From: Proteobacteria bacterium SG_bin7
GTDB lineage: Bacteria > Bdellovibrionota > Bdellovibrionia > Bdellovibrionales > SG-bin7
NCBI GenBank assembly: GCA_002083485.1
Contig: LWDK01000036.1
Location: 36,680 to 100,679, forward strand
Length of the DNA stretch: 64,000 nucleotides
Direction of reading: 5' to 3'
The notes beneath the pieces were generated by a model that was not told the DNA's origin, did not search any database, and saw nothing but the letters and a program-made list of their open reading frames with translations. The position numbers were made by a program, and so were the translations under genes. Positions 1,774 through 55,224 of the stretch are shown piece by piece. Each line of letters opens with the position of its first letter. Positions within the stretch are counted from its first letter, which is position 1.

Positions 1774-2406
1774 TTAGATTTTTACCATCTTCGTATTTCC
1801 AGCATATTCTTTGTAAGACACCTTTTGGGCTGTGATTTCTTGAATTTTTTTTACAACCTCAGAAATTCGCCAAAGCGATCTGTTTAGCTTTTCATATTTA
1901 CTATTTGATTTTATATCTTGATCGTTCAAGCAGCCAATTGCAATTGTGAGTGGATTGTTAATCTCATGATTGTAGGTTGCGATCATTGCGTCTAGCGCCG
2001 CAACCTCCTTAAGCCGTCCCATTTCTTTGGACAGGTCAGATAGAGCCAAATGAGTTTTTATTCTAGAAACCATAATATCAAAATTAACCGGTTTACTTAC
2101 AAAGTCATTGGCCCCGTCGTGTAGGCAATTTACAACTTCTTGGGTGTCGGACTTTGCCGTCATCATAATTACAGGCAGCTCGATAACATTTGTATGACTT
2201 CTGATTTTCTTCAAAATATCGGTCCCCAGAGTCCCTGGCATCAGAATGTCTAATAGTATCAAGTCAACTTTTTCGAGCGATATAATATCGTAGCACTCTT
2301 TAGCGCTTCTTGCTTCGACGACCTCATATTCCCCTTTACGTTTTAGAACCTCCGCCATCACATCTCGATCAAAATCACTATCGTCAACAATCAAAATTTT
2401 TTTCAT
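1774..2406 (-). CDS. Response-regulator receiver fused to a DHp/HisKA-like H-box domain, with no ATPase domain
   Basis: REC motifs: KILIVDDSDFDRD, VDLILLDILMPG, VIMMTAKSD, SKPV. The H-box YNHEINNPLTIAIGCL follows and the protein ends about 60 aa later without N/G1/G2 boxes. It overlaps the upstream Hpt gene by 4 nt. Confidence 0.8.
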   Translation of the reverse strand: MKKILIVDDSDFDRDVMAEVLKRKGEYEVVEARSAKECYDIISLEKVDLILLDILMPGTLGTDILKKIRSHTNVIELPVIMMTAKSDTQEVVNCLHDGANDFVSKPVNFDIMVSRIKTHLALSDLSKEMGRLKEVAALDAMIATYNHEINNPLTIAIGCLNDQDIKSNSKYEKLNRSLWRISEVVKKIQEITAQKVSYKEYAGNTKMVKI

Positions 2407-2771
2407 TTCACTTCCAACATTGCTTCCAGAAGAACTTGGATTTCGTGCCGAAGCTCAGCTAAGATATTCTCACAACCTTTAAGGTCACCTGACTTTCCTA
2501 GCTTCTCAAGAGCTTCCGCTAAACGTCGGCATGGCTCCGCATGAAAGTGCGAAACCGCACCCTTTAAAGTATGTGCCGAAATTTCCAAATTTTTACTATT
2601 TTTTTCGCTTATGGCAGTATTGATTGCGGTCATCATTCCTGGAACCGTTCCTATAAAGTTGGTGATAACTTTAACCCCAAGATCTGTCATTCCGTGAAAG
2701 TTAGCAAAAAATGCATCGCGATCAAACGGGTAACCATTGATAAATTCTTTTGAGTTTCCTTTAGTAGTCAT
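2403..2771 (-). CDS. Stand-alone Hpt phosphotransfer protein
   Basis: 122 aa, helical, with the Hpt signature ISAHTLKGAVSHFHA (HxxKG). Confidence 0.8.
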   Translation of the reverse strand: MTTKGNSKEFINGYPFDRDAFFANFHGMTDLGVKVITNFIGTVPGMMTAINTAISEKNSKNLEISAHTLKGAVSHFHAEPCRRLAEALEKLGKSGDLKGCENILAELRHEIQVLLEAMLEVK

Positions 2772-2812
2772 GAACTCTCTTTGGTAATATTTCGGAGTTC
2801 TTAAACAAAATC

Positions 2813-3505
2813 TTAATTTTGTAGGATTTTTACCCGCTCAAGCAGTTCTTTAAATTGAAATGGCTTTGATATTGGCGAACTTCCAAGGGGGATAGTCGCC
2901 ATTTGATCTGAGGACGTATACCCCGACATGAACAAGACTTTTGGCATGTTTACAGTGAACAACCGAGAGAGCAAGAACTCCACTTCTGGCCCAAGAAGGT
3001 CTGGCATAAAGATATCCAAAATAACGACCCCAACCTCTTCTTGAACAATTAACTTAAGCGCTTCTGCCCCCATCGTTGAAGTATAAATCTGAAAACCATG
3101 ATCGTGAAGAAAAGCAGATAACAATTCAACCAAGTCAGGTTCATCATCAACAACCAAAACTTTTTTTCTATCTCGCAACAACTTTTTCTGAACTCCAAGC
3201 TGAGCGAAGCCCTTGAAAATATCAAGCGGAAACGGCACGAACTCACGACGAACTGGAGAGTATAACTTCAACTCTATGCGAGAGTCCAGAACACGAAAAG
3301 AAAACAAAGGACCGGTATCGACCCGCTGTTTGAAAAAATTTATTAAATCACTATTTCCAGTATCTTCAAAAAGAATCCATGACGCTGGCGAGGGCATATC
3401 AGTTACCACCGAACCATTTATTTTGTAAAACCAAACATTTTCACTAAATTCTTTGCGAAGAAGTTCTTGGCTGGTATCACTAGAGCAAAAAATATGGAAA
3501 TGCAT
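2813..3505 (-). CDS. Response regulator with a C-terminal receiver; the N-terminal ~110 aa are uncharacterised (possibly a degenerate receiver)
   Basis: C-terminal REC: KKVLVVDDEPDLVELL, VVILDIFMPDLLG, VLFMSGYT, SKPF. The N-terminal part (HFHIFCSSD...WILFEDTG) has a receiver-like beta/alpha pattern but lacks the acidic pocket. Confidence 0.7.
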   Translation of the reverse strand: MHFHIFCSSDTSQELLRKEFSENVWFYKINGSVVTDMPSPASWILFEDTGNSDLINFFKQRVDTGPLFSFRVLDSRIELKLYSPVRREFVPFPLDIFKGFAQLGVQKKLLRDRKKVLVVDDEPDLVELLSAFLHDHGFQIYTSTMGAEALKLIVQEEVGVVILDIFMPDLLGPEVEFLLSRLFTVNMPKVLFMSGYTSSDQMATIPLGSSPISKPFQFKELLERVKILQN

Positions 3506-3541
3506 TCGACAATTATGGCTGCCAAACCATCTCTTGACTAC

Positions 3542-4624
3542 TTATTTTTTACTTATAGACTGTTTTTTTGGAAGGGTCACGACAAACGAAGTATTTAAAG
3601 ACCCAGTATCTAAACTTATCCTGCCGCCGTGAGCTTCTATTAGCTTACGCGCTATACTCAGCCCCAAGCCAGTTCCACTCTGCCTTCCCTTGGTCGTAAA
3701 GAAGGGTGTCATTATTTGGTCAGCAAGATTCGAATCTATCCCAGTGCCAGAGTCGGTGACTCGAATGGTAACGACGCCGCTATCGCACTTTGCGGTAATC
3801 CAAAGGCGACGCTCAAAAAGTGTGCGAACGGCATCAATTGAGTTACCAATCAAATTAATAAGAGCATGGCATATTTCTACAGGTCGACATTCAAACTCAA
3901 ACTCATCTATATCAAGACAGACATTGAGACGAGAGGCCAAAAGTTTTGTTTGGGAGAGGTCTATAATATCATTGAAAAGTTCCCTGGAAGAGGTGTCTAA
4001 AAATGCATCCCTGGCACTTACGTAAGTCATAGCCTTAATTCCCTTGGCAATTTTTGAAATCCGAAAACATACTTGTTCTATTTTATTTACTGCTTCTATC
4101 GCCGCCGATTTTTCTCCCTCTAAATCCTGGATAGCAGATCTTAAGAAGTTTGCTTTTCCGACAATGACGGTTAGAGGACTGTTAATTTCATGGGCAATTT
4201 CTCCCGCCATCAGTCCTAAACTTGACAAATTTGCGACTCGTTCATTTTCCGGCATAAACAAAAGTCCTAAGGAACGTGAACTTATGGGAATTCCAACAGC
4301 CCCAACAATATTAGGCTCAATAAATTCAATAGCCGAAGTTTTTTGATCAACCAAAACTCTAATGAGAGGATATTTCAGGCGGCGTAATGGTGATATATCT
4401 GTAATTTCTGTTCCGACGGTTAACCTACCATCCAAAAAAAGGCGTTCGGCCATTTGATTGTAAGAGCGAAGGACTAAAGTCTTGGACTTTTCTGCCCTAA
4501 AAAAATCAAAAATACATATACCAAAAGGAAGGCCCATAATTAACGCTTCAAGCTCTGTTGCTTCTGAATTGACCGTATTGTACTTAAGTTTCATAGAAGT
4601 TATGCAACCGCCAACATTTGGCAT
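3542..4624 (-). CDS. Cytoplasmic sensor histidine kinase (PAS-like N-terminus, HisKA, HATPase_c)
   Basis: H-box AGEIAHEINSPLTVIVG, N-box ALINLIGNSIDA, G1 VTDSGTGI, G2 SGTGLGLSIA. An alternative ATG at 4594 would avoid the 25-nt overlap with cheB. Confidence 0.85.
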   Translation of the reverse strand: MPNVGGCITSMKLKYNTVNSEATELEALIMGLPFGICIFDFFRAEKSKTLVLRSYNQMAERLFLDGRLTVGTEITDISPLRRLKYPLIRVLVDQKTSAIEFIEPNIVGAVGIPISSRSLGLLFMPENERVANLSSLGLMAGEIAHEINSPLTVIVGKANFLRSAIQDLEGEKSAAIEAVNKIEQVCFRISKIAKGIKAMTYVSARDAFLDTSSRELFNDIIDLSQTKLLASRLNVCLDIDEFEFECRPVEICHALINLIGNSIDAVRTLFERRLWITAKCDSGVVTIRVTDSGTGIDSNLADQIMTPFFTTKGRQSGTGLGLSIARKLIEAHGGRISLDTGSLNTSFVVTLPKKQSISKK

Positions 4625-5664
4625 CTTTTTATAATTTCAGCAGCAATTCGATCGAGAGGAAGAATTTCGTGAACGGCACCCACATCGATTGCCACCTTAG
4701 GCATGCCGAACACAACACATGACTGTTCATTTTGTGCGATATTATAACTACCAGCCTCTTTCATCGCCAACAAACCCTCAGCGCCGTCTTTGCCCATTCC
4801 AGTTAACACTACACCAATCGCATTTGCGCCGGCATATTTAGAAACAGATTTCATCAAATAATCCGCTGCAGGCCGAACGCCGTGCAAAGCAGGTTCTTGA
4901 TGAAGCTTAACAAAATAGTAGGCTCCGCTGCGGGAAAGCTCCATATGAAAATTTCCCGGAGCAATTAAGGCCCGTCCTGGAAAGACCTTATCTCCGTCTT
5001 GTGCCTCTTTGACTTCAAATTGACATAGCTTTTGCAAATTATCGGCATAGGTTTTTGTAAAAACCGGGGGAAGGTGTTGAACAATCACAGTCCCAGGTAT
5101 GTCCGGAGGCAATAGGGGTAACACTCTTTTTAAGGCCTCAGTTCCCCCAGTTGAAGACGCAATCGCCAAAACCGAGTGAGTCGTTTTAGCAAGTGCCGTG
5201 GCTTTAACGTCGGTGGGTCGAGCCCGAACAATGGGAGACAGAGTCCTTTTTTCAGGTAAATTTGACTTTGCGACAACTTTTACGCGTGTGATAATTTCGT
5301 AACGAACGGCTTCCATGGATCGCGTCACATCGATCGCTGGTTTCGCCATCACATCTATCGCACCTACCTCAAAGGCCCGCAAAGTAGTGGCCGAACCTTG
5401 TGTCGATAAACTACTAATAATGAGAGTGCGAGTTGGTAAATGCTGCATAACCTTCTCGAGAAAAGTTACACCATCCATTTTCGGCATTTCTACGTCTAAC
5501 GTCATAACGTCCGGCTTTAACTTCGTAAGCATTTCACGCGCCACATAGGGATCAGGCGCAGAACCAACGACTTCGATTTCGGGGTCAGAACTTAAAAACT
5601 TTGTAAGTAAAGTTCTAATAATTGAAGAATCGTCGACAACAAGAACGCGAATTTTTTGATTCAT
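4600..5664 (-). CDS. cheB: Chemotaxis response regulator protein-glutamate methylesterase CheB
   Basis: The REC domain reads IRVLVVDDSSIIR and VMTLDVEMPKMDG. The esterase domain has intact triad contexts: AIASSTGGTEAL, VIVQHLPPVFT, LTGMGKDGAEG. Confidence 0.9.
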   Translation of the reverse strand: MNQKIRVLVVDDSSIIRTLLTKFLSSDPEIEVVGSAPDPYVAREMLTKLKPDVMTLDVEMPKMDGVTFLEKVMQHLPTRTLIISSLSTQGSATTLRAFEVGAIDVMAKPAIDVTRSMEAVRYEIITRVKVVAKSNLPEKRTLSPIVRARPTDVKATALAKTTHSVLAIASSTGGTEALKRVLPLLPPDIPGTVIVQHLPPVFTKTYADNLQKLCQFEVKEAQDGDKVFPGRALIAPGNFHMELSRSGAYYFVKLHQEPALHGVRPAADYLMKSVSKYAGANAIGVVLTGMGKDGAEGLLAMKEAGSYNIAQNEQSCVVFGMPKVAIDVGAVHEILPLDRIAAEIIKRCQMLAVA

Positions 5665-7208
5665 CAGGCAACTCTCTTATTTCTAATTTCCATAACCGTG
5701 TTGGCAAAATCACCCGCGCTTTTGACGTAGTCTACAATTCCCAAATTAATTGCCTGTTGAGGACCGTAAGGAAAAGCACATAAATCCGGATCTTCAACGA
5801 GAGTAACATTGCCACTGGCGCGCATAGCCGCCAACCCGTCAACACCGTCACGGCCGAATCCACTCATAAGCACTCCTAAAGCGCCACCGCGCTCACAACT
5901 TGCGATCGACGCCATCAGCACATCGCTTGATGGCTTTTGGCCATTTACTGGAGGGAGTTGTCGAAGTTTCGCATAAAAATTATTGGATTGAGTTTCAACC
6001 ACAATATGGTTGTCTGCGGGAGCAAAATAAACATTTCCAGAGGTCAAGTGTGTGTTTTCTTTAACAACCGAAAGTCTAACAGAAACATTTTTTTTAATTT
6101 TTTGAATGTAGGCTTCGATAAACGAAGATAATGTCGAGTTGGCAACAATAACCGGCGGCGTATCACTGTTTAGCGACTGAAGAAATGCTTTTAAACCGTC
6201 TTGCGACCCCGTATTTCCGCCCACGGCAATCAATTTTAAACCCTGAATCCCTAAACCACTTACGGCATATTCGACCTTGGTATCAGATTTTTTTTGAGAC
6301 CGATTTGCCAAAACTTTTTGACTAGCTGCCGCCTTCACTTTCTCAACTAACGTTTCTCCAAGTTGCTTGATAACGGCGGGATCATACTGCGATGGTTTGT
6401 GAATAAACTCAATCGCCCCTAGCTCCAGAGCTCTAAGAGCAGCCTCGCCCTGGCTTCCCAACGACGACACCATAACAACTGGCAGCGGCATGTGTTTCAT
6501 CAACTTCTCTAAAAAAACGACGCCGTTCATTTTTGGCATCTCGATATCCAAGGTAATAACATCAGGTTTATGTTTTACCAGCATTTCACGTGCCTGATAC
6601 GGATCGGCAGCAACACCAACCACGTCTAGACCGTGTTTTGAAAAGACATTTTGGAAAAGCGATCTTACCGTCGCCGAGTCGTCAACAATTCCGACTTTGA
6701 CTTTGCGGATGGGCTCTAACTTTATTCGCCCTGAAATATCCACTTGAGAATTCTCGTCTTGATTGATAAACCTATGTATGACATTGAAGTCCGACACATT
6801 GATAGTAATCTTTCGGCTAAGCTCTCCACCCACATTTTGCTCGACAACAGGAATTCCGAGATTGGCAAGCGTCTCAAATGCAAAGTCGATATTCTTTTTC
6901 CCGACGCCAATTCCAATCTGCACATCGGTAAGTACGGCCCCACCTCCGTAGACCTTTGCCTTTAAATTCCGCCGTGAGGCACCCAGTCGTTCCAATTCTT
7001 GGATTAGCATGGGAATAGCGCATTCACCATAGCGTCCACTTGCAACTTCTCCTTGAGGAAGTTTTGTCAAAAGATAGTGGTTAAGGCCAGCACACTTTGC
7101 TAGGGGATCATACAAAACCACCGATACACAAGAGCCAAGAATTGTTGTTAATTCAACAGGGTCCTTTGACACAGCCAAACGCCCCGGCAACACATAGAGA
7201 GTTTTCAT
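5664..7208 (-). CDS. Three-domain fusion: CheD deamidase, receiver, and a CheB-like domain with a degenerate catalytic triad
   Basis: CheD part: TILGSCVSVVLYD, AGLNHYLL, KAKVYGGGAVL. REC part: KVGIVDDSATVR, VITLDIEMPKMNG, HKP. The CheB-like part reads IAVGGNTGS / PVIVANSTL / MSGFGRDGVDG, against ASSTGGT / VIVQHLPP / GMGKDGAEG in the neighbouring CheB. Confidence 0.85.
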   Translation of the reverse strand: MKTLYVLPGRLAVSKDPVELTTILGSCVSVVLYDPLAKCAGLNHYLLTKLPQGEVASGRYGECAIPMLIQELERLGASRRNLKAKVYGGGAVLTDVQIGIGVGKKNIDFAFETLANLGIPVVEQNVGGELSRKITINVSDFNVIHRFINQDENSQVDISGRIKLEPIRKVKVGIVDDSATVRSLFQNVFSKHGLDVVGVAADPYQAREMLVKHKPDVITLDIEMPKMNGVVFLEKLMKHMPLPVVMVSSLGSQGEAALRALELGAIEFIHKPSQYDPAVIKQLGETLVEKVKAAASQKVLANRSQKKSDTKVEYAVSGLGIQGLKLIAVGGNTGSQDGLKAFLQSLNSDTPPVIVANSTLSSFIEAYIQKIKKNVSVRLSVVKENTHLTSGNVYFAPADNHIVVETQSNNFYAKLRQLPPVNGQKPSSDVLMASIASCERGGALGVLMSGFGRDGVDGLAAMRASGNVTLVEDPDLCAFPYGPQQAINLGIVDYVKSAGDFANTVMEIRNKRVA

Positions 7209-8161
7209 GCGGCAATAATCCTATCAACGTCGACGATCAAAACGGTTTTCTTTTCACTAATACTAATATGGCTGACCAAACTTTTTCCCGAACCGGACAA
7301 TCGATCATTTTTTTGAAAATTTCCAACATTAAGCTCATCAATTTGTTGAGCTTGTTCAATAGGAAATCCAAAACGAACCCCATCAACATTACAAATGACA
7401 ATAAAAGATTTTTCGAGATTCGTGCATTCCCCGAAAGTAAGTTTTAAATCCAGTATAGGCATGACCTCACCCCGCAGATTCATAAGGCCCATAAGATCAG
7501 CTCGATGCGCAGGCATTATATTCAGTTTTTTAAACTGCACCACTTCAACGACTTTGGTAACAGGAATTCCGAATTGTCGTCCTTGATTCACACATAGGAG
7601 GAAAACTCGCTTTTCTGGTAAAGCCTCCTTTTTCTCTAAAGGGGGAATTTCCTTAGCGACCCTATTATTAGGTGGGATAGGCTGACTGACTTTTTCTTCG
7701 GAAACGACAGCCTGAATTTGGTCGGCTTTTGTACTTTTAACCATCCAAGATGACAAATTGTTAAGTAACGGACTATAAGTTTCTAAGAGGGAAGCAGTAT
7801 CTTCGAGTGTATTTGATAGATCAATTAAATACTTTTCTACCGACTGTAAAACATTTGAGAGCTGAAACTCCAGATTCATTAGCGAGTCTGTTATTTTGTT
7901 AACCTCTGTGGCCGAGATTTCCTCTTTTATTTTGGTCAGTCGAGTTTCTATTTCGTGTACAAACTGTCCACAAAAACTAAAACCAACCGCCTGAACATTG
8001 CCTTTCAAACTGTGAAAGGACTTCATAACCTTATCAAGAACCTCTATAGGATTCTTAGACAGTTCGGGCAAAACCTCTCTTGCCTCAGTCACATACTCTT
8101 GGCTGTCCACAGCACATTGTTTCTGTAAGTCTTTTAAAAACCCGTCTTCCGCCGCTGTCAT
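7205..8161 (-). CDS. Hpt(P1)-CheW(P5) protein: CheA-like but without dimerisation and ATPase domains
   Basis: N-terminal P1-type Hpt motif MKSFHSLKGNVQAVGF. C-terminal CheW-like domain FLLCVNQGRQFGIPVTKVVEVV...LMNLRGEVMPILDL. No N/G1/G2 boxes anywhere in the 318 aa. Confidence 0.8.
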   Translation of the reverse strand: MTAAEDGFLKDLQKQCAVDSQEYVTEAREVLPELSKNPIEVLDKVMKSFHSLKGNVQAVGFSFCGQFVHEIETRLTKIKEEISATEVNKITDSLMNLEFQLSNVLQSVEKYLIDLSNTLEDTASLLETYSPLLNNLSSWMVKSTKADQIQAVVSEEKVSQPIPPNNRVAKEIPPLEKKEALPEKRVFLLCVNQGRQFGIPVTKVVEVVQFKKLNIMPAHRADLMGLMNLRGEVMPILDLKLTFGECTNLEKSFIVICNVDGVRFGFPIEQAQQIDELNVGNFQKNDRLSGSGKSLVSHISISEKKTVLIVDVDRIIAA

Positions 8162-8170
8162 GATTCACTC

Positions 8171-10279
8171 CTAAGCCGCATTGGCTGTCTGCTCTTTCGA
8201 TAGTAAAGTTATCATGTCCTCTGGAGACACCACATAAGCAATTTTTTCGTTCCCTAACATCGTCGTACCCTTAAACCCGGGAAGGCTTTTTACAATATTG
8301 TCAAAAGATCTCACCACGGCTTCAAGCTGGTCTTCGATGCGGTCGATCAACAGCCCAATAAACTTATGCTTATAACGAATGATGACCGCCGATTTGCTTC
8401 TCACCGACTCCACAGACTCGATATTTCTGTTCTCAAGGAGTTCATCAAAACTTCGCAATACAATAGTTTGGCCGTCAAATTCGCACATTCTCGTTTGATC
8501 AAGTTCTGTTAACTGAAGTTGATCACAAGACATAATTCTGGCTATCGAGGTCAGTGGAACCGCAAACACGGCGTCTTTCCAGGCCCCCAAAACTGTGTGC
8601 TCAACCATCACCGCCTTTGGAACCGGTATCTCAATGGTAAAAGTAGTTCCTTTACCAAGGGATGAGCCAATCTTTACGTTTCCAGCGTGTTGAAGTACGG
8701 AAGACTTAACGACATCCATTCCGACGCCACGACCCGACACGCCTGTGACCTTTTCAGCTGTAGAAAATCCTGGTAAAAAAATCAAATCAAACACTTCTGC
8801 GTCCGACATACCCTGTGACTTTTCTTTAGTTACAAGTTGATTTTGAATAGCTTTTGCAATGACCTTATCCCTAGGGATTCCGTTACCATCATCACTTACC
8901 ACGATGTTAATGACGCCTTGGCTTTCTGAAGCCTTGATATTAATGATTCCCTCTTCACTCTTCCCACGCTCTCGTCTTACCGATGGAGTTTCAAGACCGT
9001 GATCGATAGAGTTACGAACCATATGCACCAAACAACTTCCCAATGATTTGGCAATATTTTTATCAACTCCTAACTCTAACCCTTCGGTCGTAAATTTAAC
9101 TTTCTTTCCAACCTCTTGACTTGTCTGACGCACAATTCGATTCAACTTACTGAAAGCTTTCTCGAGAGAGACTTTTCGCACTGACATTATGTGTTCCTGG
9201 AGATGGTCAGTAATTTTATTCAGGCTATAAGCGAATTCTGCATGTTTTTTCTCGAGCTTTTGCGGATTATTTCTAATTTCATGATCGCGACTCATCATGT
9301 GAAAATGGTTCTTTAGTACAATGAGTTCTCCGGACAAAGCCATAAAAGAGTCAAGTTTTTCATTAGACACCCAGATCCCTTCATCTTCTTGTGTAAAGTC
9401 CTCTTTACCAGAATTGGATGAAGGGCTAGAATTAATCGTAGCCACTGCCATTGACTCAGGAACAGCCGCCTGATTCTTTTTTTCTTTCAGATCTTTTAGT
9501 TGCTCAATAACAGAATCTACTTTTTTTCGAAGCTCTGGATCTACTTGATCGTCGACTTTAATGATTTGAAGAAGTTTTAGCACCAAATCCGTAGATTCAA
9601 GGAAAGTATTAATCGCGTGTGCGTTTGGCTTAAACTCTCTCTTTTTTATAAGCGCCAGTACTGATTCAAATTCGTGTGCGAGTGTACTTAAAGTTTTTGC
9701 TTGCGGAATAGCTCCCGCTCCCCCCTTTACTGAGTGAACTTTGCGAAAAAGTGAATCTACAACCACAAGATCCAGCGGCTCTTCTTCAAGCCGAAGCACC
9801 AATTGATCAGCATCGCTCATGAGGTCATGGGATTCTTCAACGAAGAGTTGGGTAATCTCTAAAACCTCTTTCTTCTCTTGTTCAATGTCAGCAATTCTTT
9901 TTTGTGCATACTTAATGACTAAGGATCGCAACTGGTCTGACGGAATTGGCTTTTCAACAATATCGTTAACGCCCTGACTTAAACTGGCCATTGCCAACGT
10001 TTTATCGCTATAAGCGGTTACAAAGACAAAAGGTAGAGCCGGCAAAGTCTTACGCAACTCCTGACAAAAAACCAGCCCATCCATTCCCGGCATCTTAAAA
10101 TCAGAAAGAATCAGAAAAGGTACCGTGGACTTAACGGCTTCAATAGCATCTTTAGGATTAGAAAATGTACGTACGCGAATACCTGTCTCTTGAATTACCG
10201 CAGAGACTACCTGAAGGATTTCTTCTTCGTCATCAACAATAAAAACTTCTTCGTTTAGATTCAATTTTAACTGACTCAT
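8171..10279 (-). CDS. cheA: CheA histidine kinase with an N-terminal receiver domain (REC-P1-P3-P4-P5)
   Basis: REC: VFIVDDEEEIL, LILSDFKMPGMDG, FVTAYSD, EKPI. P1: FRKVHSVKGGAGAI. P4: HMVRNSIDHGLE, VSDDGNGI, GVSGRGVGMDVVK. C-terminal CheW-like domain present. Confidence 0.9.
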   Translation of the reverse strand: MSQLKLNLNEEVFIVDDEEEILQVVSAVIQETGIRVRTFSNPKDAIEAVKSTVPFLILSDFKMPGMDGLVFCQELRKTLPALPFVFVTAYSDKTLAMASLSQGVNDIVEKPIPSDQLRSLVIKYAQKRIADIEQEKKEVLEITQLFVEESHDLMSDADQLVLRLEEEPLDLVVVDSLFRKVHSVKGGAGAIPQAKTLSTLAHEFESVLALIKKREFKPNAHAINTFLESTDLVLKLLQIIKVDDQVDPELRKKVDSVIEQLKDLKEKKNQAAVPESMAVATINSSPSSNSGKEDFTQEDEGIWVSNEKLDSFMALSGELIVLKNHFHMMSRDHEIRNNPQKLEKKHAEFAYSLNKITDHLQEHIMSVRKVSLEKAFSKLNRIVRQTSQEVGKKVKFTTEGLELGVDKNIAKSLGSCLVHMVRNSIDHGLETPSVRRERGKSEEGIINIKASESQGVINIVVSDDGNGIPRDKVIAKAIQNQLVTKEKSQGMSDAEVFDLIFLPGFSTAEKVTGVSGRGVGMDVVKSSVLQHAGNVKIGSSLGKGTTFTIEIPVPKAVMVEHTVLGAWKDAVFAVPLTSIARIMSCDQLQLTELDQTRMCEFDGQTIVLRSFDELLENRNIESVESVRSKSAVIIRYKHKFIGLLIDRIEDQLEAVVRSFDNIVKSLPGFKGTTMLGNEKIAYVVSPEDMITLLSKEQTANAA

Positions 10280-10286
10280 TAAGGCC

Positions 10287-11198
10287 TCACATCTTTCTCA
10301 ATTTTTTATAAACTGCGTGACTTAAGGTTTTCACATCTTTAGACCTCATGGCACCCGACTCTGAATGGCCCAAAAATAGAAGGCCCTCAGGCGTAAGAAA
10401 ATGAAGCGCATTTTCAACAACCCTATGAGCAGTTTGAGGATCAAAGTAAATCAAAACATTGCGACAAAAGATAATGTCAAAGTTGCCCTTAAACGGATAA
10501 GGCTCGTCGACCAGATTTAAAGGTGCAAAACGCACAAATTTTTGAAAATCCGGCAGGATCTGAAAAAGTGTGCCTTCCACCTTTGTCAACTTTCTAAAAT
10601 ACTTCTGACGCATCAAAACAGGAACCCCTTCAATTTCCTTCTCACTATAAACGGCTTTACTCGCTTTTTGTAACACCTCGAGATCTATATCTGTTGCCAA
10701 AAAACGAAAATCCCAATTTTTTATAGAATCGCCAAAAAATTCAAGTATGGTAAGCAAAATAGAATAGACCTCTTGTCCTGTGCTAGCGGCGCCACACCAA
10801 ATACGTAGCTCACGAGAATTTTCTGCTTTCTTTCTTGCTAAAATTTCCGGAAGGACTGAAGTTAAGAAACTAAAATGAGCATTTTCACGGAAGAAATGAG
10901 TGGTATTGGTGGTGAGCGATTGCACAAAATTTCTTTTTATAACTTCGTCGCCGGTCTTCAGTCTCTTAACTAAATCTCCATATTTTGCAATTTTGTGACT
11001 CTTCATCAGTGACATCAATCGCGTTGCCATAAGCGAATGATTTTTGGGATTCGAAGCAAGATTAATTCCTGCATACCCTTTCAAAAGCAATGCGAGCTCA
11101 AGAAAGCCCTTCACATCAGATTGGAGGATAGCCAACATTTCTTGACTATCAGAAAGATATTCTGTCGCCGCAACCACCGCACTTTGATTAAATTTCAT
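10287..11198 (-). CDS. cheR: Chemotaxis protein methyltransferase CheR
   Basis: Reads FFRENAHF, then the SAM-binding block RIWCGAASTGQEVYSI, then FDIIFCRNVLIYF. Overlaps the upstream cheA by 4 nt. Confidence 0.9.
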   Translation of the reverse strand: MKFNQSAVVAATEYLSDSQEMLAILQSDVKGFLELALLLKGYAGINLASNPKNHSLMATRLMSLMKSHKIAKYGDLVKRLKTGDEVIKRNFVQSLTTNTTHFFRENAHFSFLTSVLPEILARKKAENSRELRIWCGAASTGQEVYSILLTILEFFGDSIKNWDFRFLATDIDLEVLQKASKAVYSEKEIEGVPVLMRQKYFRKLTKVEGTLFQILPDFQKFVRFAPLNLVDEPYPFKGNFDIIFCRNVLIYFDPQTAHRVVENALHFLTPEGLLFLGHSESGAMRSKDVKTLSHAVYKKLRKM

Positions 11199-12859
11199 AT
11201 AGCCTCTGGTCGAAGTTGTCCGACATCATTGTTAACCAAATCATGAAGGCCATAAGCATTAATGACCAATGCCACCCGCCCGTCACCCAAAATTGCCGCC
11301 CCAGAAATTCCCCGAACTTCTTTGAAATTGTTGCCGAGAGGTTTCAGGACAACTTGGGTTTGACCCACGACTTCATTGACACCAACGACAAGTTGTTTTT
11401 TGCCAGCTTCAAGAAGAACATACATTTGGGGAGGAGCATGCTGACTAACTGATTTACTAAAGGCTTGACCTAGATTCAAAATTCGAACTGCCACGCCTCG
11501 ATGATTTAAAGCCTGGAGTCCATCTTCAATAGAAATGAACTCCGCACCGGTGGGGTAAATCAGTTCCCGGATACAATCTAAAGGGATAATATAGTAGAGG
11601 CGACCGACACGCACAATGAGTCCGTCCGTTATCGAAGTTGTCAAAGGAATCGAAATCGTGATTTTCGTTCCAACGGACAGTTGGGAAGAAACCTCAACAG
11701 CGCCCTTCATCTTTTCGATGTTGGATTTTACAACATCCATACCGACACCGCGGCCAGAAACATCCGTTACAACTTCTGCCGTTGAAAATCCTGGTTCAAA
11801 AATAAATAGAAATATTTGCTGCTCAGAAAAAGATGAAAGCAATTGATCTTTGGCCACGAGACCCTTTTCCTTGGCCTTTTCGAAAATTTTCTCCGTGTTA
11901 ATTCCGGCTCCATCGTCGATGACTTCAATAGTAACACGATCCCCCTGTTGACGAGCCGAAACTTTTATTTTTCCAGTCGCGACTTTTCCGCGGCTCACTC
12001 TTGTCGAGGTTGGCTCGATTCCATGATCTAATGAGTTGCGTACAATATGCATAAGTGGATCGGCAAGCAGCTCTACCATTGACCGATCAATTTCAATATC
12101 TTCACCAGACATTTCCAGCTCGACCGATTTCGAAATTTTCACAGATAGATCGCGCACCAACCTCTGCATTTTTAAGAAAAGTGGCTTCAGCGGCATCATT
12201 CTTAAAATCAAAGTTTTCTCTTGAATTTCGCGAATGGCTTTATCAAGTTGCGAGACAATCGAAATAAGTCGGACATCTCCCAAATAATTTTGGCATTGAT
12301 TCAGTACCTGACTCTTAATGACGACGAGCTCGCCGACAGAATTCAACAGTGTTTCAACGACACCTGAATCTATTTTTATACTGCTTGCACCGGAATTAGT
12401 AGTCATGTGGGTCAGCTTAGCTACTTTCGCTTTTGGCTTCTCGTTTGATTCCGTGGGAATTTCAGCGCGAAGCTTTTCGATAAGTTTCTGCAATTCCAAA
12501 AATAGTTGCGAGTTATCCCAGATGGACCCATCGCGAGTCTTCAACATCGCAATTCGGGTTTTAAAAGCATCATCACATAGTAAAAGTAGTGATATTATCT
12601 CTGTGTTGATTTTTTCCGGACAAACACGTAATATGGCGAGAAGATCTTCAACAACATGGGCAAATGCGGATAAATCTGTAAACCCGACGGCAGCGCCAGT
12701 TCCCTTCATCGAATGAACAAGTCTAAATATCCGATTCAGTTCCTCAGTACGACTCTCAGGTTTTTCGAGGTTTAAATAGGACTCCTCACACTCTTCCAAC
12801 ATGAAAGTAATTTCATCTAAAAATTCTTTTTGAAACCCCTCAAGCGCAAATTCTTCCAT
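11195..12859 (-). CDS. cheA: CheA histidine kinase (P1-P3-P4-P5)
   Basis: P1: FRLVHSMKGTGAAVGF. P4: HIVRNSLDHGIE, VIDDGAGI, DVSGRGVGMDVVK. C-terminal CheW-like domain LIVRVGRLYYIIPL. Confidence 0.9.
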   Translation of the reverse strand: MEEFALEGFQKEFLDEITFMLEECEESYLNLEKPESRTEELNRIFRLVHSMKGTGAAVGFTDLSAFAHVVEDLLAILRVCPEKINTEIISLLLLCDDAFKTRIAMLKTRDGSIWDNSQLFLELQKLIEKLRAEIPTESNEKPKAKVAKLTHMTTNSGASSIKIDSGVVETLLNSVGELVVIKSQVLNQCQNYLGDVRLISIVSQLDKAIREIQEKTLILRMMPLKPLFLKMQRLVRDLSVKISKSVELEMSGEDIEIDRSMVELLADPLMHIVRNSLDHGIEPTSTRVSRGKVATGKIKVSARQQGDRVTIEVIDDGAGINTEKIFEKAKEKGLVAKDQLLSSFSEQQIFLFIFEPGFSTAEVVTDVSGRGVGMDVVKSNIEKMKGAVEVSSQLSVGTKITISIPLTTSITDGLIVRVGRLYYIIPLDCIRELIYPTGAEFISIEDGLQALNHRGVAVRILNLGQAFSKSVSQHAPPQMYVLLEAGKKQLVVGVNEVVGQTQVVLKPLGNNFKEVRGISGAAILGDGRVALVINAYGLHDLVNNDVGQLRPEAI

Positions 12860-12861
12860 GT

Positions 12862-13383
12862 TTATGCTCGCCTCTTTGTTATTAACATAGTTTTCTTCAT
12901 GACTAACAATTGGCGCTTAATATCTCTGACTTTTGCAAGTTGTATCGGGTCAAGATTTTGAAAGAGACTGTCTTTTCCACTCTCCTCCTCCAACGAACTT
13001 AACTGCTGTCCAAGTTCACATGATTTTTTAATGACCGAAAACAGTTCACTCTGTTGATATGGCTTTTCCAAAAAGTCAAAGGCTCCCAACTTCAAGGCTT
13101 CGATTACCTTCGCCTTATCACCATAGCCGGTCAAAAAAACAAAAGGGACGAAGTTATCCATCTCTCTTAAGTTTTTAAGCAGTTCGAGGCCATTCATTTC
13201 TGGCATATTGATGTCAGAAAGAATCGCGTCAATTGTGCGCTCTCCACCATTTACAATTTTAAGAGCGCTGGCACCATTCTCCGCCAAAACGATATTGATT
13301 GGAAGCAACTGGAGTTGCTCAAAGAGCACCTCCTGAAGATCATGATCGTCTTCCACAACTAGCAAAGTCGCCTTAGCATTCAT
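12862..13383 (-). CDS. CheY-like single-domain response regulator with a ~50-aa C-terminal helical extension
   Basis: REC: TLLVVEDDHDL, ILSDINMPEMNG, VFLTGYGD, EKPY. I placed the start at ATG 13383 (MNAKATLL), 13 nt after the cheW stop; the ORF-track start at 13428 overlaps cheW. Confidence 0.8.
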   Translation of the reverse strand: MNAKATLLVVEDDHDLQEVLFEQLQLLPINIVLAENGASALKIVNGGERTIDAILSDINMPEMNGLELLKNLREMDNFVPFVFLTGYGDKAKVIEALKLGAFDFLEKPYQQSELFSVIKKSCELGQQLSSLEEESGKDSLFQNLDPIQLAKVRDIKRQLLVMKKTMLITKRRA

Positions 13384-13396
13384 AAACCCTACATAT

Positions 13397-13870
13397 CTAC
13401 GCAGCGATATTTTGACTCGAAATCGCATTCTGAATCTTGGTCAGTTCGCTATGACCTAGAGCCTTTACGATATCTATCAAAATCACTACGGTGTTATCTA
13501 TTTTCCCCATCCCAATAACATACGAAATTTTGGATTCTTCTCCCATCGCAGGGCGCGGTTCAATTTGCTCCGCCGAGAGGTCTATTACCCCGCTCACTGA
13601 GTCCACTATCATTCCGACCTGCCCGGCGTCGCTCTCGATGACGATAATGCAAGTTTCTCGTGTATGAGGAACCGATGGAATCCCAAATTTCATTCTTAAA
13701 TCTACGACTGGAATTACCTTACCACGCAGATTTATAACTCCAGCCACAAAACCAGGTGTCTGAGGAACGGGAGTAATGTCGGTGACCCGATTAATCTCCC
13801 TTACCGAGCCAATGGGAACTCCATAGGGCTGGGACTTCAACGAAAATGTTAAAAATTGCTTTGTGGACAT
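13397..13870 (-). CDS. cheW: Chemotaxis coupling protein CheW
   Basis: CheW fold motifs: QFLTFSLKSQPYGVPIGSVREI, VINLRGKVIPVVDLRMKFG. ATG 13870 (MSTKQF) lies 4 nt after the MCP stop. Confidence 0.85.
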   Translation of the reverse strand: MSTKQFLTFSLKSQPYGVPIGSVREINRVTDITPVPQTPGFVAGVINLRGKVIPVVDLRMKFGIPSVPHTRETCIIVIESDAGQVGMIVDSVSGVIDLSAEQIEPRPAMGEESKISYVIGMGKIDNTVVILIDIVKALGHSELTKIQNAISSQNIAA

Positions 13871-13874
13871 CGTA

Positions 13875-15902
13875 TTAAAACCCATCTGTTGTTCCAACTT
13901 TATTGGCCACGTCCTCATCAAAAGGAATAGCCTGCGTAGCTGGAGTCGGGCGCTTCAATTTGCTAACGAACTTTTTTGCGGTGTTGATTGGCCGCACATC
14001 GTGATGACTAGCGACGGTCTTACCTTTTTCGTCGCCACGAGATGTTTCATTGTTGGTGCCCTGGATTAACAGGGTCATTTCAGATACAAGTCCTTTCAGG
14101 GTATCAGCCTGACTTGACATCTCGGTTGCCGATGCTGCGACTTCCTCAGATGCAGATGCATTTTGCTGAGTTGATTGATCTAATTCATTCATGGCTTTGC
14201 TGATCTGACCTATGCCATTGGCCTGTTCGGCACTTGCCGAGGCAATCTCACTATTTAAATCTGACACCTTCTTAACACTGGTCACGATATTTTTAAGAAC
14301 ATTTCCACTGGCGTCGGCGATTTTCGTACCACTTTCAATTTGTGAAACGCTATCTTTAATTAAAGCGGTAATATCTTTAGCTGCTGAAGCGCTTCTCTGT
14401 GCCAGGTTTCTTACGGCCTCTGCAACAACTGCAAACCCTTTGCCCTGTTCACCAGCTCGGGCAGCTTCCACAGCAGCGTTAAGCGCCAGCAAATTGGTCT
14501 GAAACGCAATATCGTCTATCACGTTTATAATTTCTTCGATTTTTTTCGAGCTTTGTGAAATTTCTTTCATCGACGAAATTAAATTTCTAATTTCTGTCTC
14601 GCCTTCTTCTGCAGACTTTGTACTCGTTTGAGAAAGTGAGGCGGCCTGTTTGGCATTGTCAGCATTGAGTTTTACCATGCTTGACAACTCTTCGATCGAA
14701 GAAACAGTTTCTTCAAGAGACGCAGCCGCTTCTGTAGATCCCGAAGATACTTGTTGACTCGCCGAAGAAAGTTGAGCGCTTGCCGAAGAGACTTGAACTC
14801 CCGACTCAGCGATCTGCTTAGTAATATCGGACAAGCGGTTGGCGATACGCACTGACAAAAACCAAGCCACAACCAAGAAGATCAAGGCCAGAGTTCCAGT
14901 AATAATTTGGAATTGCCATGCGGCTTTATCAATGGCCGCAAACACTTCATCAGAAGCGATACGCACCAAGGTTCCCCAACCTAAAGCATTCGCAAATTTA
15001 TCAGATGTTATCGGCCCATAACCTATAACTTGATCAATTCCCTTGCGTGCATGCCTTCCCGTCGTTGAGCCCGAGCGACCACCGACAATTTCCTTAGCAG
15101 CAAATACTCCGCGCTCCGCAAGATTAAGCTTTCCTAAAACACTGGAGTCGTGTTTTACTTCAAGGTTGCCACCATTAACCGAGGGATCATAATCGACAAT
15201 TACATTTCCAGCCTTATCAAGTATTGTTAGTTCAGCAGAACCAAGTTTCGCTGCCTTGAATCTTTTATATAAATCTACAACCTCATTCTCAACCCACCTG
15301 AAATTAGCGCGATTTGTAAGGACACCCATTGGCTTTCCAGTTGAATCTTTAACCAAGGCGCTAAAACTGTTGCCATAGATGTCTTTCTTTAATACCGCTG
15401 AACTAATAGGATCAAAATGAGCGCTTTCAACAAAAGTTCCAACTAAACCTTTTTTAGGATCTTCGGTTAAGTTGTTGTTGGACACAGCTTTGAACCAGGC
15501 CTCGCTATTATACATTTTGGATTGAAGGGGCGTGGTATCAATGGGCTTACCAGACGCATCGACTGCATTTGCCGCGATAAAGTGACCGGACATATCCACG
15601 AACATGACAACGTCGTAGATCCCGTAAAGCGTGACATACTCGTTAAAAGTTTTCGTCAAGATTTTTGAATCCTTAAGATTAAAAGCGTGATTTTTAGCGA
15701 AAGCCTGAACATCGAAATAGCGCTCGTAAAATTGTGACGCAATACCAAGTCCGAGACCTTCAGAGTGGGATCCGAAATTCTCTAGTATATTATTCCGTTG
15801 CTCATTGAGTGCCATTCGAAATTGAACAAAATTTGCGGCTCCGAAAACTAGCAGAACCCCAAACATCATCATAACTATTTTTGCTTTAAAACTTTTAAAC
15901 AT
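13875..15902 (-). CDS. Methyl-accepting chemotaxis protein with a large (~300 aa, double-Cache-like) periplasmic domain
   Basis: Two TM segments (aa ~9-27 and ~325-347). The highly conserved hairpin tip reads [37 protein letters not shown]. Candidate methylation heptads: [38 protein letters not shown]. Confidence 0.9.
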
Positions 15903-55189: not shown

Positions 55190-55224
55190 TCTCGTCAAAT
55201 GTTAGATTGAAAAAGGAGTCCTAT

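What the first reader, a model, noticed from the sequence alone, without database searches (positions are those of the whole stretch)
7205..10279. P1-P5 pseudo-CheA next to a receiver-capped CheA: possible split-kinase or trans-phosphorylation design
The 318-aa protein has a CheA-type P1 (FHSLKGNVQAVGF) and a CheW-like P5, but no dimerisation or ATPase domain. It is encoded 9 nt downstream of a CheA whose receiver sits at the N-terminus rather than the usual C-terminal CheA-CheY position.

In Rhodobacter sphaeroides, a P1-P5 protein (CheA3) is phosphorylated in trans by a P1-less kinase (CheA4). Here both neighbouring kinases keep their own P1, so the cluster has three competing P1 substrates. 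The N-terminal receiver could gate kinase access.
Basis: partly seen in the sequence, partly recalled or inferred. Interest (0 to 1): 0.6.

Follow-up and report, generated by a model that had tools for sequence, protein, structure and literature searches.

The report
CheW adaptor carrying an extra P1 domain
This small chemotaxis protein joins the phosphate-accepting head (P1) of a CheA kinase to a CheW scaffold domain; it probably gives the receptor-kinase lattice of Bdellovibrio-like bacteria an extra phosphate carrier fed by a neighbouring kinase, which makes it a new variant of the rare 'split CheA' design rather than a new kind of system.

Summary
Window 7205-8161 (-) encodes a 318-aa protein with three parts: a five-helix CheA-type P1 domain, a disordered 45-aa linker and a CheW fold. 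It has no P3 or P4. It starts 9 nt after a 702-aa CheA whose receiver domain is N-terminal.

The interpretation needs revision. The C-terminal domain is CheW-type, not P5-type. The protein is therefore a CheW that gained a P1, not a CheA that lost its core.

It belongs to a family of about 60 clusters at 50% identity. In all 13 independent loci examined it sits in the trio REC-CheA -> P1-CheW -> CheD-REC-CheB. Named relatives are all Bdellovibrionales MAGs. The P1 His and its K/H/E partners are kept in about 90% of members.

The second kinase of the operon, CheA1, has lost or degraded its own P1 in 5 of 9 relatives but keeps intact ATP-binding boxes. Phosphorylation of a P1 on another polypeptide must therefore occur in this system family.

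Six family members lost the His yet keep the domain, so a phospho-independent role also exists.

Verdict: new variant of a known kind, moderate interest. The mechanism is inferred, not shown.

The parts
7205..8161 (-). Gene for the 318-aa P1-linker-CheW protein (P1-CheW)
   Evidence: ORF. Pfam Hpt plus CheW. Identical to NCBI MAG protein A4S09_03625. The family has about 60 clusters at 50% identity.
7742..8161 (-). P1 domain (aa 1-140), a five-helix CheA-type phosphotransfer domain. It carries His50 (codon 8012-8014), Lys53, His69 and Glu72.
   Evidence: AF2 helices at 3-33, 38-58, 62-83, 91-118 and 123-137. Best PDB sequence hits are T. maritima CheA P1 2ld6/1tqg. Fold hits are 1i5n and 3kyi. 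H50, K53, H69 and E72 are invariant in the 7 closest homologues and kept in 50-55 of 59 family representatives.
7613..7741 (-). Flexible linker (aa 141-183)
   Evidence: pLDDT 26-43. Only 14% mean identity across the family, length 31-114 aa, rich in A/E/P/S.
7208..7612 (-). CheW-type domain (aa 184-318) with the GLMNLRGE motif and a C-terminal -IIAA tail
   Evidence: Pfam CheW at 84 bits. Foldseek hits to CheW 6s1k_C, 2qdl and 2ch4. It scores higher with a CheW HMM than with P5 HMMs (48.2 vs 38.5 and 7.7 bits). BLAST hits the operon's CheW and not either P5.
8168..8172 (-). Shine-Dalgarno AGGAG for the P1-CheW gene, overlapping the stop codon of REC-CheA2
   Evidence: Sequence read.
8171..10279 (-). 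REC-CheA2, 702 aa: REC (9917-10246), P1 (9470-9859), P3 (9179-9370), P4 (8618-9037), P5 (8207-8575)
   Evidence: Pfam. The P1 His motif VHSVKGG..AHEFES and the REC residues D-D-D-T-K are intact. About 45 full-length orthologues; the named ones are Bdellovibrionales or Bdellovibrionaceae MAGs.
5664..7208 (-). CheD-REC-(pseudo)CheB fusion, 514 aa, translationally coupled to P1-CheW through an ATGA overlap
   Evidence: Pfam CheD, Response_reg and CheB_methylest. Overlap read. The CheB catalytic Ser and His are replaced in all 10 orthologues, while the CheD Cys/His and the REC residues are intact.
11195..12859 (-). CheA1, 554 aa, P1-P3-P4-P5 with no P2. This is the second kinase of the operon.
   Evidence: Pfam. 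Orthologues lack or have degraded P1 in 5 of 9 loci.
4600..5664 (-). Canonical REC-CheB methylesterase, 354 aa
   Evidence: Pfam at 209 bits. The catalytic motifs STGG, QHLPP and GKDG are present.
10287..11198 (-). CheR methyltransferase, 303 aa
   Evidence: Pfam CheR at 176 bits.
12862..13428 (-). CheY-like single receiver with a C-terminal extension, 188 aa
   Evidence: Pfam Response_reg at 94 bits.
13397..13921 (-). Stand-alone CheW, 174 aa, ending in -NIAA
   Evidence: Pfam CheW at 134 bits.
13875..15902 (-). Transmembrane MCP, 675 aa, first gene of the operon, C-terminus GTTDGF
   Evidence: Pfam MCPsignal at 176 bits. The C-terminal motif is conserved in orthologues.

Best explanation
The 318-aa protein is the dedicated CheW-type coupling protein of the REC-CheA2 kinase, and it has acquired an N-terminal CheA-type P1 domain on a flexible tether.

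Proposed mechanism:
1. Its CheW domain occupies a CheW position in the receptor-kinase lattice, binding the receptor tip and CheA P5.
2. This holds an extra P1 domain within reach of the P4 catalytic domains.
3. His50 is phosphorylated in trans by the P4 of CheA2 and/or CheA1.
4. The phosphoryl group passes to a receiver domain. The most likely acceptors are the adaptation proteins encoded immediately downstream (CheD-REC-pseudoCheB, CheB), or the CheY-like REC188.

The lattice then has a second, separately tuned phosphodonor beside the kinases' own P1 domains.

**Shown:**
- the domain anatomy;
- the CheW-type identity of the C-terminal domain;
- conservation of the His/Lys/His/Glu set;
- the invariant gene trio;
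- the existence of P1-less but otherwise intact CheA1 kinases in relatives.

**Inferred:** lattice incorporation, trans-phosphorylation of His50, and the identity of the acceptor.
For: 1. Anatomy is P1, disordered linker, CheW fold, with nothing else.
2. The P1 is CheA-type. Its best PDB sequence hits are T. maritima CheA P1. It has five helices. H50, K53, H69 and E72 have the same spacing (+3, +19, +22) as E. coli CheA H48, K51, H67 and E70 (established knowledge of P1). These four residues are invariant down to 30% identity and kept in 53, 55, 50 and 54 of 59 representatives.
3. P1 and CheW are equally conserved (33% and 35% identity), while the linker is not (14%, length 31-114 aa). This is the signature of two functional domains on a tether.
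4. The C-terminal domain is CheW-type in 59 of 59 members. In L023 a plain 157-aa CheW sits in the same slot after a REC-CheA, and its best match is this domain.
5. The gene order REC-CheA2 -> P1-CheW -> CheD-REC-CheB holds in every locus recovered: window, L001, L004, L006, L009, L011, L016, L017, L019, L021, L022, L024, L025. This holds down to 19% identity. The junctions have an SD site and an ATGA coupling.
6. CheA1 orthologues are bare P3-P4-P5 cores in L001/L008/L014, L019 and L024, and have a His-less P1 in L004 and L011. All keep the ATP-binding boxes. Phosphorylation of a P1 on another polypeptide is therefore required in these lineages.
7. A liberated P1 is a competent substrate, and CheA4 phosphorylates CheA3 P1 in R. 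sphaeroides (PMC10782961).
Against: - No experiment or expression data exist for any family member.
- In the window both kinases keep their own P1, so the extra P1 is not needed to complete a kinase.
- Six of 59 representatives lost His50 yet keep the domain.
- In L019 the His is lost although CheA1 is also P1-less. There the P1-less core must use CheA2's P1. A CheA2 P1 with an intact His is present in every locus where the CheA2 P1 region could be read.
- There is no clear complementarity between CheA1 P1 loss and P1-CheW His retention. The counts are 4 lost/intact, 1 lost/lost, 4 intact/intact and 0 intact/lost, from only 9 loci.
- The acceptor receiver is a guess from gene adjacency.
Confidence: 0.5

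Rival explanations
1. The protein is a phospho-independent scaffold or regulator. It is a CheW whose P1-like domain works by binding rather than by carrying phosphate. It might dock the receiver of CheD-REC-pseudoCheB or CheB at the array, substituting for the missing P2 domain. Alternatively it might occupy the P1-binding site of P4 as a competitive brake on the kinase.
For: - His-less members keep a folded-looking P1-like domain and the same synteny: P0043/L025, P0046/L019, P0048, P0051, P0059/L021 and P0131/L022.
- Neither CheA has a P2 domain, so a docking site for receivers is otherwise missing.
- The REC of CheD-REC-CheB stays intact in the His-less lineages, so it is served by another P1 there.
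Against: - In the window and in about 90% of the family, the His and also K53, H69 and E72 are conserved. These residues tune the His for phosphorylation by P4. Pure docking would not need them.
- The two roles are not exclusive.
Confidence: 0.25
2. The protein is a phosphorelay node. The N-terminal receiver of CheA2 is phosphorylated by CheA2's own P1 and then passes the phosphoryl group to His50 of P1-CheW, which feeds a downstream receiver. This is a His-Asp-His-Asp relay, as within P. aeruginosa ChpA.
For: - The two genes are adjacent and co-conserved.
- ChpA is a precedent for REC-to-Hpt transfer, as described in bioRxiv 10.1101/2022.05.07.491035 and PMC10782961.
- In L021 the loss of the CheA2 receiver coincides with loss of the P1-CheW His.
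Against: - In L001 the CheA2 receiver has lost its acidic pocket (DD to AT), yet the P1-CheW His set is intact.
- In L019 the receiver is intact while the His is lost.
- The domain is a five-helix CheA P1 with the Glu72 partner, not a generic four-helix Hpt like the operon's own Hpt122.
Confidence: 0.1
3. The protein is a decaying remnant of a third CheA that lost P3-P4 by deletion, that is, a non-functional pseudo-kinase.
For: The order of domains, P1 then a CheW-like domain, is what an internal deletion of a CheA would leave.
Against: - The family has about 60 clusters at 50% identity, with both domains conserved and fixed synteny.
- The C-terminal domain is CheW-type, not P5-type.
- The P1 is not a recent copy of either neighbour's P1. 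It scores 36 bits against CheA1 P1, at most 26 against CheA2 P1, and 44-46 against unrelated CheA P1 domains.
- The gene has a good SD site and translational coupling.
Confidence: 0.02

Closest known systems
Rhodobacter (Cereibacter) sphaeroides split kinase CheA3 / CheA4
   Same: - Both are kinase-dead proteins with an N-terminal phosphorylatable P1 and a C-terminal CheW-like domain, encoded in one operon with a CheA kinase.
- In relatives of this window (L001, L019, L024) the partner CheA1 is a bare P3-P4-P5 core, like CheA4.
- The fold of the P1 matches CheA3 P1 (3kyi, TM 0.64).
   Different: - CheA3 is about 1100 aa and has a 794-aa middle region. That region holds degenerate Hpt, P2, P3 and P4 domains (PMC10782961). 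Its CheY6-P phosphatase activity comes from the literature and was not examined here. The window's protein has only a 45-aa disordered linker.
- The C-terminal domain here is CheW-type rather than P5-type.
- A second, complete REC-CheA is always present here.
- The lineage is Bdellovibrionales-like, not Rhodobacteraceae, which indicates an independent origin.
- In the window itself CheA1 still has its P1.
[quoted passage not shown]
   Same: A P1/Hpt lies on a polypeptide other than the one carrying the catalytic domain, in the same operon. Hpt...CheW proteins without an ATPase domain are catalogued.
   Different: - Those surveys list architectures only. The CheW-like domains of CheA.XI/XII were assigned to the CheA class (Class 3).
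- Here the domain is CheW-like, and the P1 is additional to, not a replacement for, the kinases' own P1.
- The family, its trio synteny and its lineage were not described in the papers I could search.
CheV (CheW domain fused to a receiver domain)
   Same: Both are coupling proteins of the CheW type that carry a phosphotransfer module into the receptor-kinase lattice as an accessory adaptor alongside plain CheW.
   Different: CheV carries a C-terminal receiver (a phospho-acceptor Asp). Here an N-terminal P1 (a phospho-His donor) is fused instead. This is a resemblance in logic only.
CheA-CheY hybrid kinases (for example H. pylori CheAY, ChpA) as a comparison for the 702-aa REC-CheA2
   Same: All four CheA core domains are present together with a fused, apparently functional receiver. 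The usual proposed role of such a receiver is a phosphate sink or intramolecular relay.
   Different: The receiver here is N-terminal, directly before P1. It is C-terminal in most of the ~34% of CheAs that have one, and N-terminal placement is reported for only 'several cases'.

Membership tests
CheA histidine kinase (core = Hpt + H-kinase_dim + HATPase_c + CheW, per PMC10782961) | Hpt/P1 domain with the conserved phospho-His | tested here: met
   Pfam Hpt at 28.3 bits. Aligns to T. maritima CheA P1 with His on His. His50 is invariant in close homologues.
CheA histidine kinase (core = Hpt + H-kinase_dim + HATPase_c + CheW, per PMC10782961) | P3 dimerisation domain | tested here: not met
   No H-kinase_dim hit. 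Only a 45-aa disordered linker lies between the two domains.
CheA histidine kinase (core = Hpt + H-kinase_dim + HATPase_c + CheW, per PMC10782961) | P4 HATPase_c catalytic domain | tested here: not met
   No HATPase_c hit. No GHKL fold among the Foldseek matches. There is no room for it in the 318 aa.
CheA histidine kinase (core = Hpt + H-kinase_dim + HATPase_c + CheW, per PMC10782961) | C-terminal P5 (CheA-class CheW-like domain) | tested here: not met
   A CheW-like fold is present, but it is CheW-class. In 59 of 59 members it scores higher with a CheW HMM than with two P5 HMMs. BLAST finds the operon's CheW and not either P5.
Split CheA of the R. sphaeroides CheA3/CheA4 type | Kinase-dead protein with P1 and a C-terminal CheW-like domain | tested here: met
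Split CheA of the R. sphaeroides CheA3/CheA4 type | Partner kinase in the operon lacking its own P1 (P3-P4-P5) | tested here: not met
   In the window CheA1 and CheA2 both have an intact P1. The feature is met only in relatives L001, L019 and L024. P1 is degenerate in L004 and L011.
Split CheA of the R. sphaeroides CheA3/CheA4 type | Long central region with degenerate Hpt/P2/P3/P4 domains and phosphatase activity | tested here: not met
   The linker is 45 aa and disordered. It is 31-114 aa across the family.
Split CheA of the R. sphaeroides CheA3/CheA4 type | Trans-phosphorylation of the P1 His by the partner's P4 | not testable with these tools
   Needs an in vitro phosphorylation assay.
CheW coupling protein | CheW fold and a CheW-class sequence profile | tested here: met
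   Pfam CheW at 84 bits. Foldseek hits to CheW structures with TM 0.63-0.78. CheW HMM outscores P5 HMMs. The GLMNLRGE motif is present.
CheW coupling protein | Single-domain protein of about 150-170 aa | tested here: not met
   318 aa, with an added N-terminal P1 and a linker.
CheW coupling protein | Binds the receptor tip and CheA P5 in arrays | not testable with these tools
   Needs pull-down, two-hybrid or cryo-ET experiments.
CheA-receiver hybrid kinase (for the 702-aa neighbour) | Complete CheA core plus a fused receiver with the phospho-acceptor Asp | tested here: met
   Pfam REC, Hpt, dimerisation, HATPase_c and CheW. The motifs DD..SDFKMP..T..K are present.
CheA-receiver hybrid kinase (for the 702-aa neighbour) | Receiver at the C-terminus (the usual position) | tested here: not met
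   The receiver is at residues 12-121, N-terminal to P1. This placement is conserved in about 35 full-length orthologues.

The most novel reading that the evidence does not exclude
P1-CheW would define a new class of coupling protein that places a phosphorylatable P1 at CheW positions of the chemoreceptor lattice.

Kinase cores could then phosphorylate a lattice-tethered P1 in trans. This would include the naturally P1-less CheA1 of several lineages. Phosphoryl groups would be routed specifically to a receiver-gated CheD fused to a catalytically dead CheB domain.

The whole module would be a Bdellovibrionota-specific adaptation circuit. Its components would also carry conserved C-terminal Ala-Ala tails for ClpXP-type turnover during the life cycle.
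Probability: 0.25. Interest if true: 0.7.

Novelty: new variant of a known kind. Interest (0 to 1): 0.5.

Why it matters
Split or bipartite CheA kinases are rare. A survey cited in PMC3591291 found 11 among 481 CheAs, and only the R. sphaeroides CheA3/CheA4 pair has been studied.

This family offers a second, independently evolved and much simpler version: P1, tether and CheW, with no relic domains. It also comes with natural variants. Some lineages have an intact CheA1 P1 and others lack it. Some have the P1-CheW His and others lack it. Some have the CheA2 receiver and others lack it.

These variants make three questions directly testable:
- How does a P4 domain choose among competing P1 substrates in an array?
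- Can CheW positions carry signalling domains?
- How is phosphate partitioned between motor and adaptation outputs?

The family is also a candidate defining feature of a chemosensory module specific to Bdellovibrio-like bacteria.

Tried and rejected
- **Cryptic kinase domain.** Rejected by Pfam and NCBIfam, the AF2 model and Foldseek against the PDB.
- **Recent duplication of a neighbour's P1.** Rejected. The P1-CheW P1 HMM scores unrelated CheA P1 domains (44-46 bits) at least as high as CheA1 P1 (36) and CheA2 P1 (at most 26).
- **Strict complementarity.** The idea was that P1-CheW keeps its His exactly where CheA1 lost P1. It is not supported, because L019 lost both. The sample is only 9 loci.
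- **Word-indexed homologue search with the 59-sequence profile.** It returned only 10 proteins because of the candidate cap.
- **Locus scans.** A scan with the wide alignment failed for lack of a conserved stretch. Narrower scans gave only 1 GTDB locus and 6 metagenome loci. A wide phyletic census could therefore not be completed.
- **AFDB fold search.** The library was unavailable.
- **Literature searches.** A search for 'Hpt-CheW' found nothing and a search for a CheD-CheB fusion found nothing relevant.
- **Cluster-member look-up for organism names.** It gave no names.
- **Promoter and terminator scan inside the operon.** Hits were at or below the shuffled expectation. This is consistent with a single transcription unit but does not prove it.
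- **CheA class (F1-F17, ACF, Tfp).** This was not determined.

Full report
**1. Observation**

The region holds two tightly packed minus-strand genes inside a long chemotaxis operon that runs from 15902 down to at least 4600.

The gene order is as follows:
- MCP (13875-15902)
- CheW (13397-13921)
- a CheY-like receiver, REC188 (12862-13428)
- CheA1 (11195-12859; P1-P3-P4-P5, no P2)
- CheR (10287-11198)
- REC-CheA2 (8171-10279)
- the 318-aa protein (7205-8161)
- a CheD-REC-CheB fusion (5664-7208)
- CheB (4600-5664)

These are followed by a small HK / REC / Hpt / REC set (1774-4624).

The 318-aa protein has a Pfam Hpt hit (residues 21-93, 28.3 bits) and a CheW hit (188-317, 84.4 bits). It has no dimerisation or ATPase hit. 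The 9-nt spacer contains AGGAG 6 nt before the ATG, and the stop codon overlaps the next start as ATGA. The window is identical to a contig of the MAG 'Proteobacteria bacterium SG_bin7'.

**2. Structure**

An AlphaFold2 model was built on seven homologues (mean pLDDT 77). It gives five helices at 3-137 (pLDDT about 90), a disordered segment at 144-181 (pLDDT 26-43) and a CheW-like beta domain at 184-317.

Foldseek against the PDB matches the C-terminal domain to CheW and P5 structures (TM 0.63-0.79). It matches the N-terminal domain to Salmonella CheA P1 (1i5n, TM 0.68-0.75) and R. sphaeroides CheA3 P1 (3kyi, TM 0.64). No GHKL fold appears.

By sequence, the best solved relatives of the N-terminal domain are T. 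maritima CheA P1 (2ld6, 1tqg), with His aligned on His. There is neither sequence, fold nor space for P3 or P4.

**3. The phospho-site**

His50, Lys53, His69 and Glu72 have the spacing of E. coli CheA His48, Lys51, His67 and Glu70. That hydrogen-bond network is known from the CheA P1 literature; this is my knowledge, not a tool result.

The four residues are invariant in seven homologues down to 30% identity. In 59 representatives of 50%-identity clusters they are kept in 53, 55, 50 and 54 members respectively. P1 and the CheW domain are equally conserved (33% and 35% mean identity to the window protein). The linker is not conserved (14%) and varies from 31 to 114 residues, rich in A, E, P and S. 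This is the pattern of two selected domains on a flexible tether.

**4. CheW, not P5**

- BLAST of the C-terminal domain finds the operon's stand-alone CheW (E 8e-11) and neither P5 domain.
- An HMM of eight co-operonic CheW proteins scores all 59 family members higher (median 44.6 bits) than HMMs of generic P5 (23.0) or CheA2 P5 (11.5).
- The domain carries the CheW motif G-L-M-N-L-R-G-E.
- In locus L023 (a Bdellovibrionales MAG), a REC-CheA is followed in the same slot by a plain 157-aa CheW. Its best match is this domain.
- The P1 is not a recent copy of either neighbour's P1.

The protein is therefore best read as the dedicated CheW of REC-CheA2 that acquired a P1, not as a CheA that lost its core.

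**5. Family and context**

The word-indexed search found only seven homologues. The exhaustive profile search of 1.84 billion representatives found about 60 proteins of 280-400 aa that match the profile end to end.

In every independent genomic context I could recover, the order REC-CheA2 -> P1-CheW -> CheD-REC-CheB holds, even at 19-25% identity. The contexts are the window, L001/L008/L013/L014, L004, L005/L006, L009/L010, L011, L016, L017, L019, L021, L022, L024 and L025. In L022, a 1-Mb marine scaffold labelled Bdellovibrionaceae, the trio stands alone.

Full-length orthologues of REC-CheA2 form a sharply bounded group of about 45 clusters. All the named ones are Bdellovibrionales or Bdellovibrionaceae MAGs.

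**6. Natural experiments on the P1 domains**

The status of CheA1's own P1 across loci:

| CheA1 P1 status | Loci |
|---|---|
| Intact | window, L006, L009, L017 |
| Absent | L001 (407 aa; seen in three independent assemblies), L019 (406 aa), L024 (508 aa) |
| Present but His-less | L004 (His to Arg, Lys to Asn), L011 |

All of these CheA1 proteins keep the N, G1, F and G2 boxes. A catalytically equipped kinase without a substrate domain must phosphorylate a P1 on another chain. Trans-phosphorylation is thus an inferred necessity in this system family, as with CheA4 acting on CheA3.

CheA2's P1 His is intact in every locus where the CheA2 P1 region could be read. P1-CheW's His is intact in the window, L001, L004, L006, L009, L011, L016, L017 and L024. 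It is lost in L019, L021, L022 and L025.

L019 lacks both the CheA1 P1 and the P1-CheW His. The P1-less core there must use CheA2's P1. P1-CheW must therefore also have a function that does not need phosphorylation.

**7. Most likely mechanism**

(Confidence about 0.5; the steps are marked in the structured field.)

The CheW domain inserts the protein into the lattice next to CheA. The tether keeps P1 near the P4 domains. His50 is phosphorylated in trans. The phosphoryl group then goes to a receiver, most plausibly one of the adaptation proteins encoded just downstream.

Rivals are a phospho-independent docking or braking role (0.25), a REC(CheA2)-to-Hpt relay like ChpA (0.1) and a decayed CheA remnant (0.02).

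The relay idea is weakened by two loci. In L001 the CheA2 receiver has lost its acidic pocket but the P1-CheW His set is intact. L019 shows the reverse.

**8. Comparison with the known**

The closest functional analogue is CheA3/CheA4 of R. sphaeroides, which Berry et al. call a unique case restricted to Rhodobacteraceae. The differences are as follows:
- There are no relic domains between P1 and the CheW-like domain.
- The C-terminal domain is CheW-class.
- A complete REC-CheA is always present.
- The lineage is different.

Separate Hpt genes ('bipartite CheA') and ATPase-less 'CheA.XI/XII' architectures are catalogued. I found no description of this family or its trio.

N-terminal receivers in CheA are reported only as 'several cases'. 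The protein fails the membership tests for CheA (no P3 or P4) and for CheA3-type proteins (no central region; no P1-less partner in this window). It passes the fold and profile tests for CheW.

**9. Verdict**

This is a new variant of a known kind (split or accessory P1 in chemosensory kinases). It is of moderate interest, mainly because the family supplies natural variants that make P1 choice by P4 experimentally tractable. Nothing about function has been shown experimentally.

Noticed in passing
window 7205-8161, 8171-10279 and 13397-13921; also 4600-5664, 5664-7208 and 12862-13428; loci L001-L024: Conserved C-terminal Ala-Ala (or -VA/-SA) tails on the chemotaxis proteins only.
- In the window, 3 of 58 ORFs of at least 120 aa end in -AA, and all three are che genes: CheW ..NIAA, REC-CheA2 ..ANAA and P1-CheW ..IIAA.
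- Across nine related loci, 22 of 66 che proteins end in -AA and 41 of 66 end in A. Among neighbouring genes the counts are 1 of 72 and 7 of 72, and the single -AA case is a CheX.
- Most of the 59 P1-CheW family members end in -AA.
- This resembles ClpXP-type non-polar C-terminal degrons. Caulobacter chemoreceptors McpA and McpB are ClpXP substrates (PMC8973945).
- It suggests regulated turnover of the array.
   Followed up: partly
window 5664-7208 (-), with orthologues in L001, L004, L006, L009, L011, L017, L019, L021 and L022: The CheD-REC-CheB fusion has a catalytically dead CheB domain in all 10 orthologues.
- The active-site Ser (STGG) is replaced by Asn, and the His (QHxPP) by Asn, Cys or Val. 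The Asp is kept.
- The CheD Cys/His pair and the receiver residues D-D-D-S-K are intact.
- It looks like a phosphorylation-gated receptor deamidase that uses a pseudo-esterase domain.
- I found no description of such a fusion.
   Followed up: partly
L001 5784-7007 (same in L008 and L014); L019 5659-6879; L024 5460-6986; L004 5273-6967; L011 6111-7904: Orthologues of the window's CheA1 are naturally P1-less P3-P4-P5 cores (407, 406 and 508 aa) or carry a His-less degenerate P1 (L004, L011). All keep the ATP-binding boxes. These are CheA4-like kinases outside Rhodobacteraceae.
   Followed up: yes
window 13875-15902 (-), with MCP orthologues in L001, L004, L009 and L017: The operon's MCPs end in a conserved GTTDGF (GTTDEF in L009). 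This recalls the C-terminal pentapeptide tether for CheR and CheB in other chemoreceptors. It was not tested.
   Followed up: no
L001 7903-9984 (REC-CheA2 orthologue): The N-terminal receiver has lost its acidic pocket (DD to AT) and the conserved Thr, so it is a probable pseudo-receiver. The same lineage also lacks the REC188 gene and the CheA1 P1. Several other CheA2 orthologues lack the receiver altogether: L021 at 613 aa, and P0173, P0188, P0195-P0197 and P0200.
   Followed up: partly
L023 9001-11569: In Bdellovibrionales bacterium RIFOXYC1_FULL_54_43, a REC-CheA is followed by a plain 157-aa CheW instead of P1-CheW. That CheW is most similar to the P1-CheW C-terminal domain. It is either the ancestral state or a secondary loss of P1.
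   Followed up: partly
window 1774-4624 (-): A histidine kinase (360 aa), a receiver protein (230 aa), a stand-alone Hpt (122 aa) and a REC protein with a HisKA-like stub (210 aa) directly follow CheB. The kinase ORF overlaps the cheB end by 25 nt. This tail is not present in most related loci. It may be a lineage-specific phosphorelay output of the operon.
   Followed up: no
window 53813-55189 and 55207-56619 (+): Two adjacent ORFs of similar size (458 and 470 aa) have near-identical C-termini (..DIGAYESY and ..DIGAYESF). The first has a right-handed beta-helix domain. They are probably a tandem duplicate.
   Followed up: no
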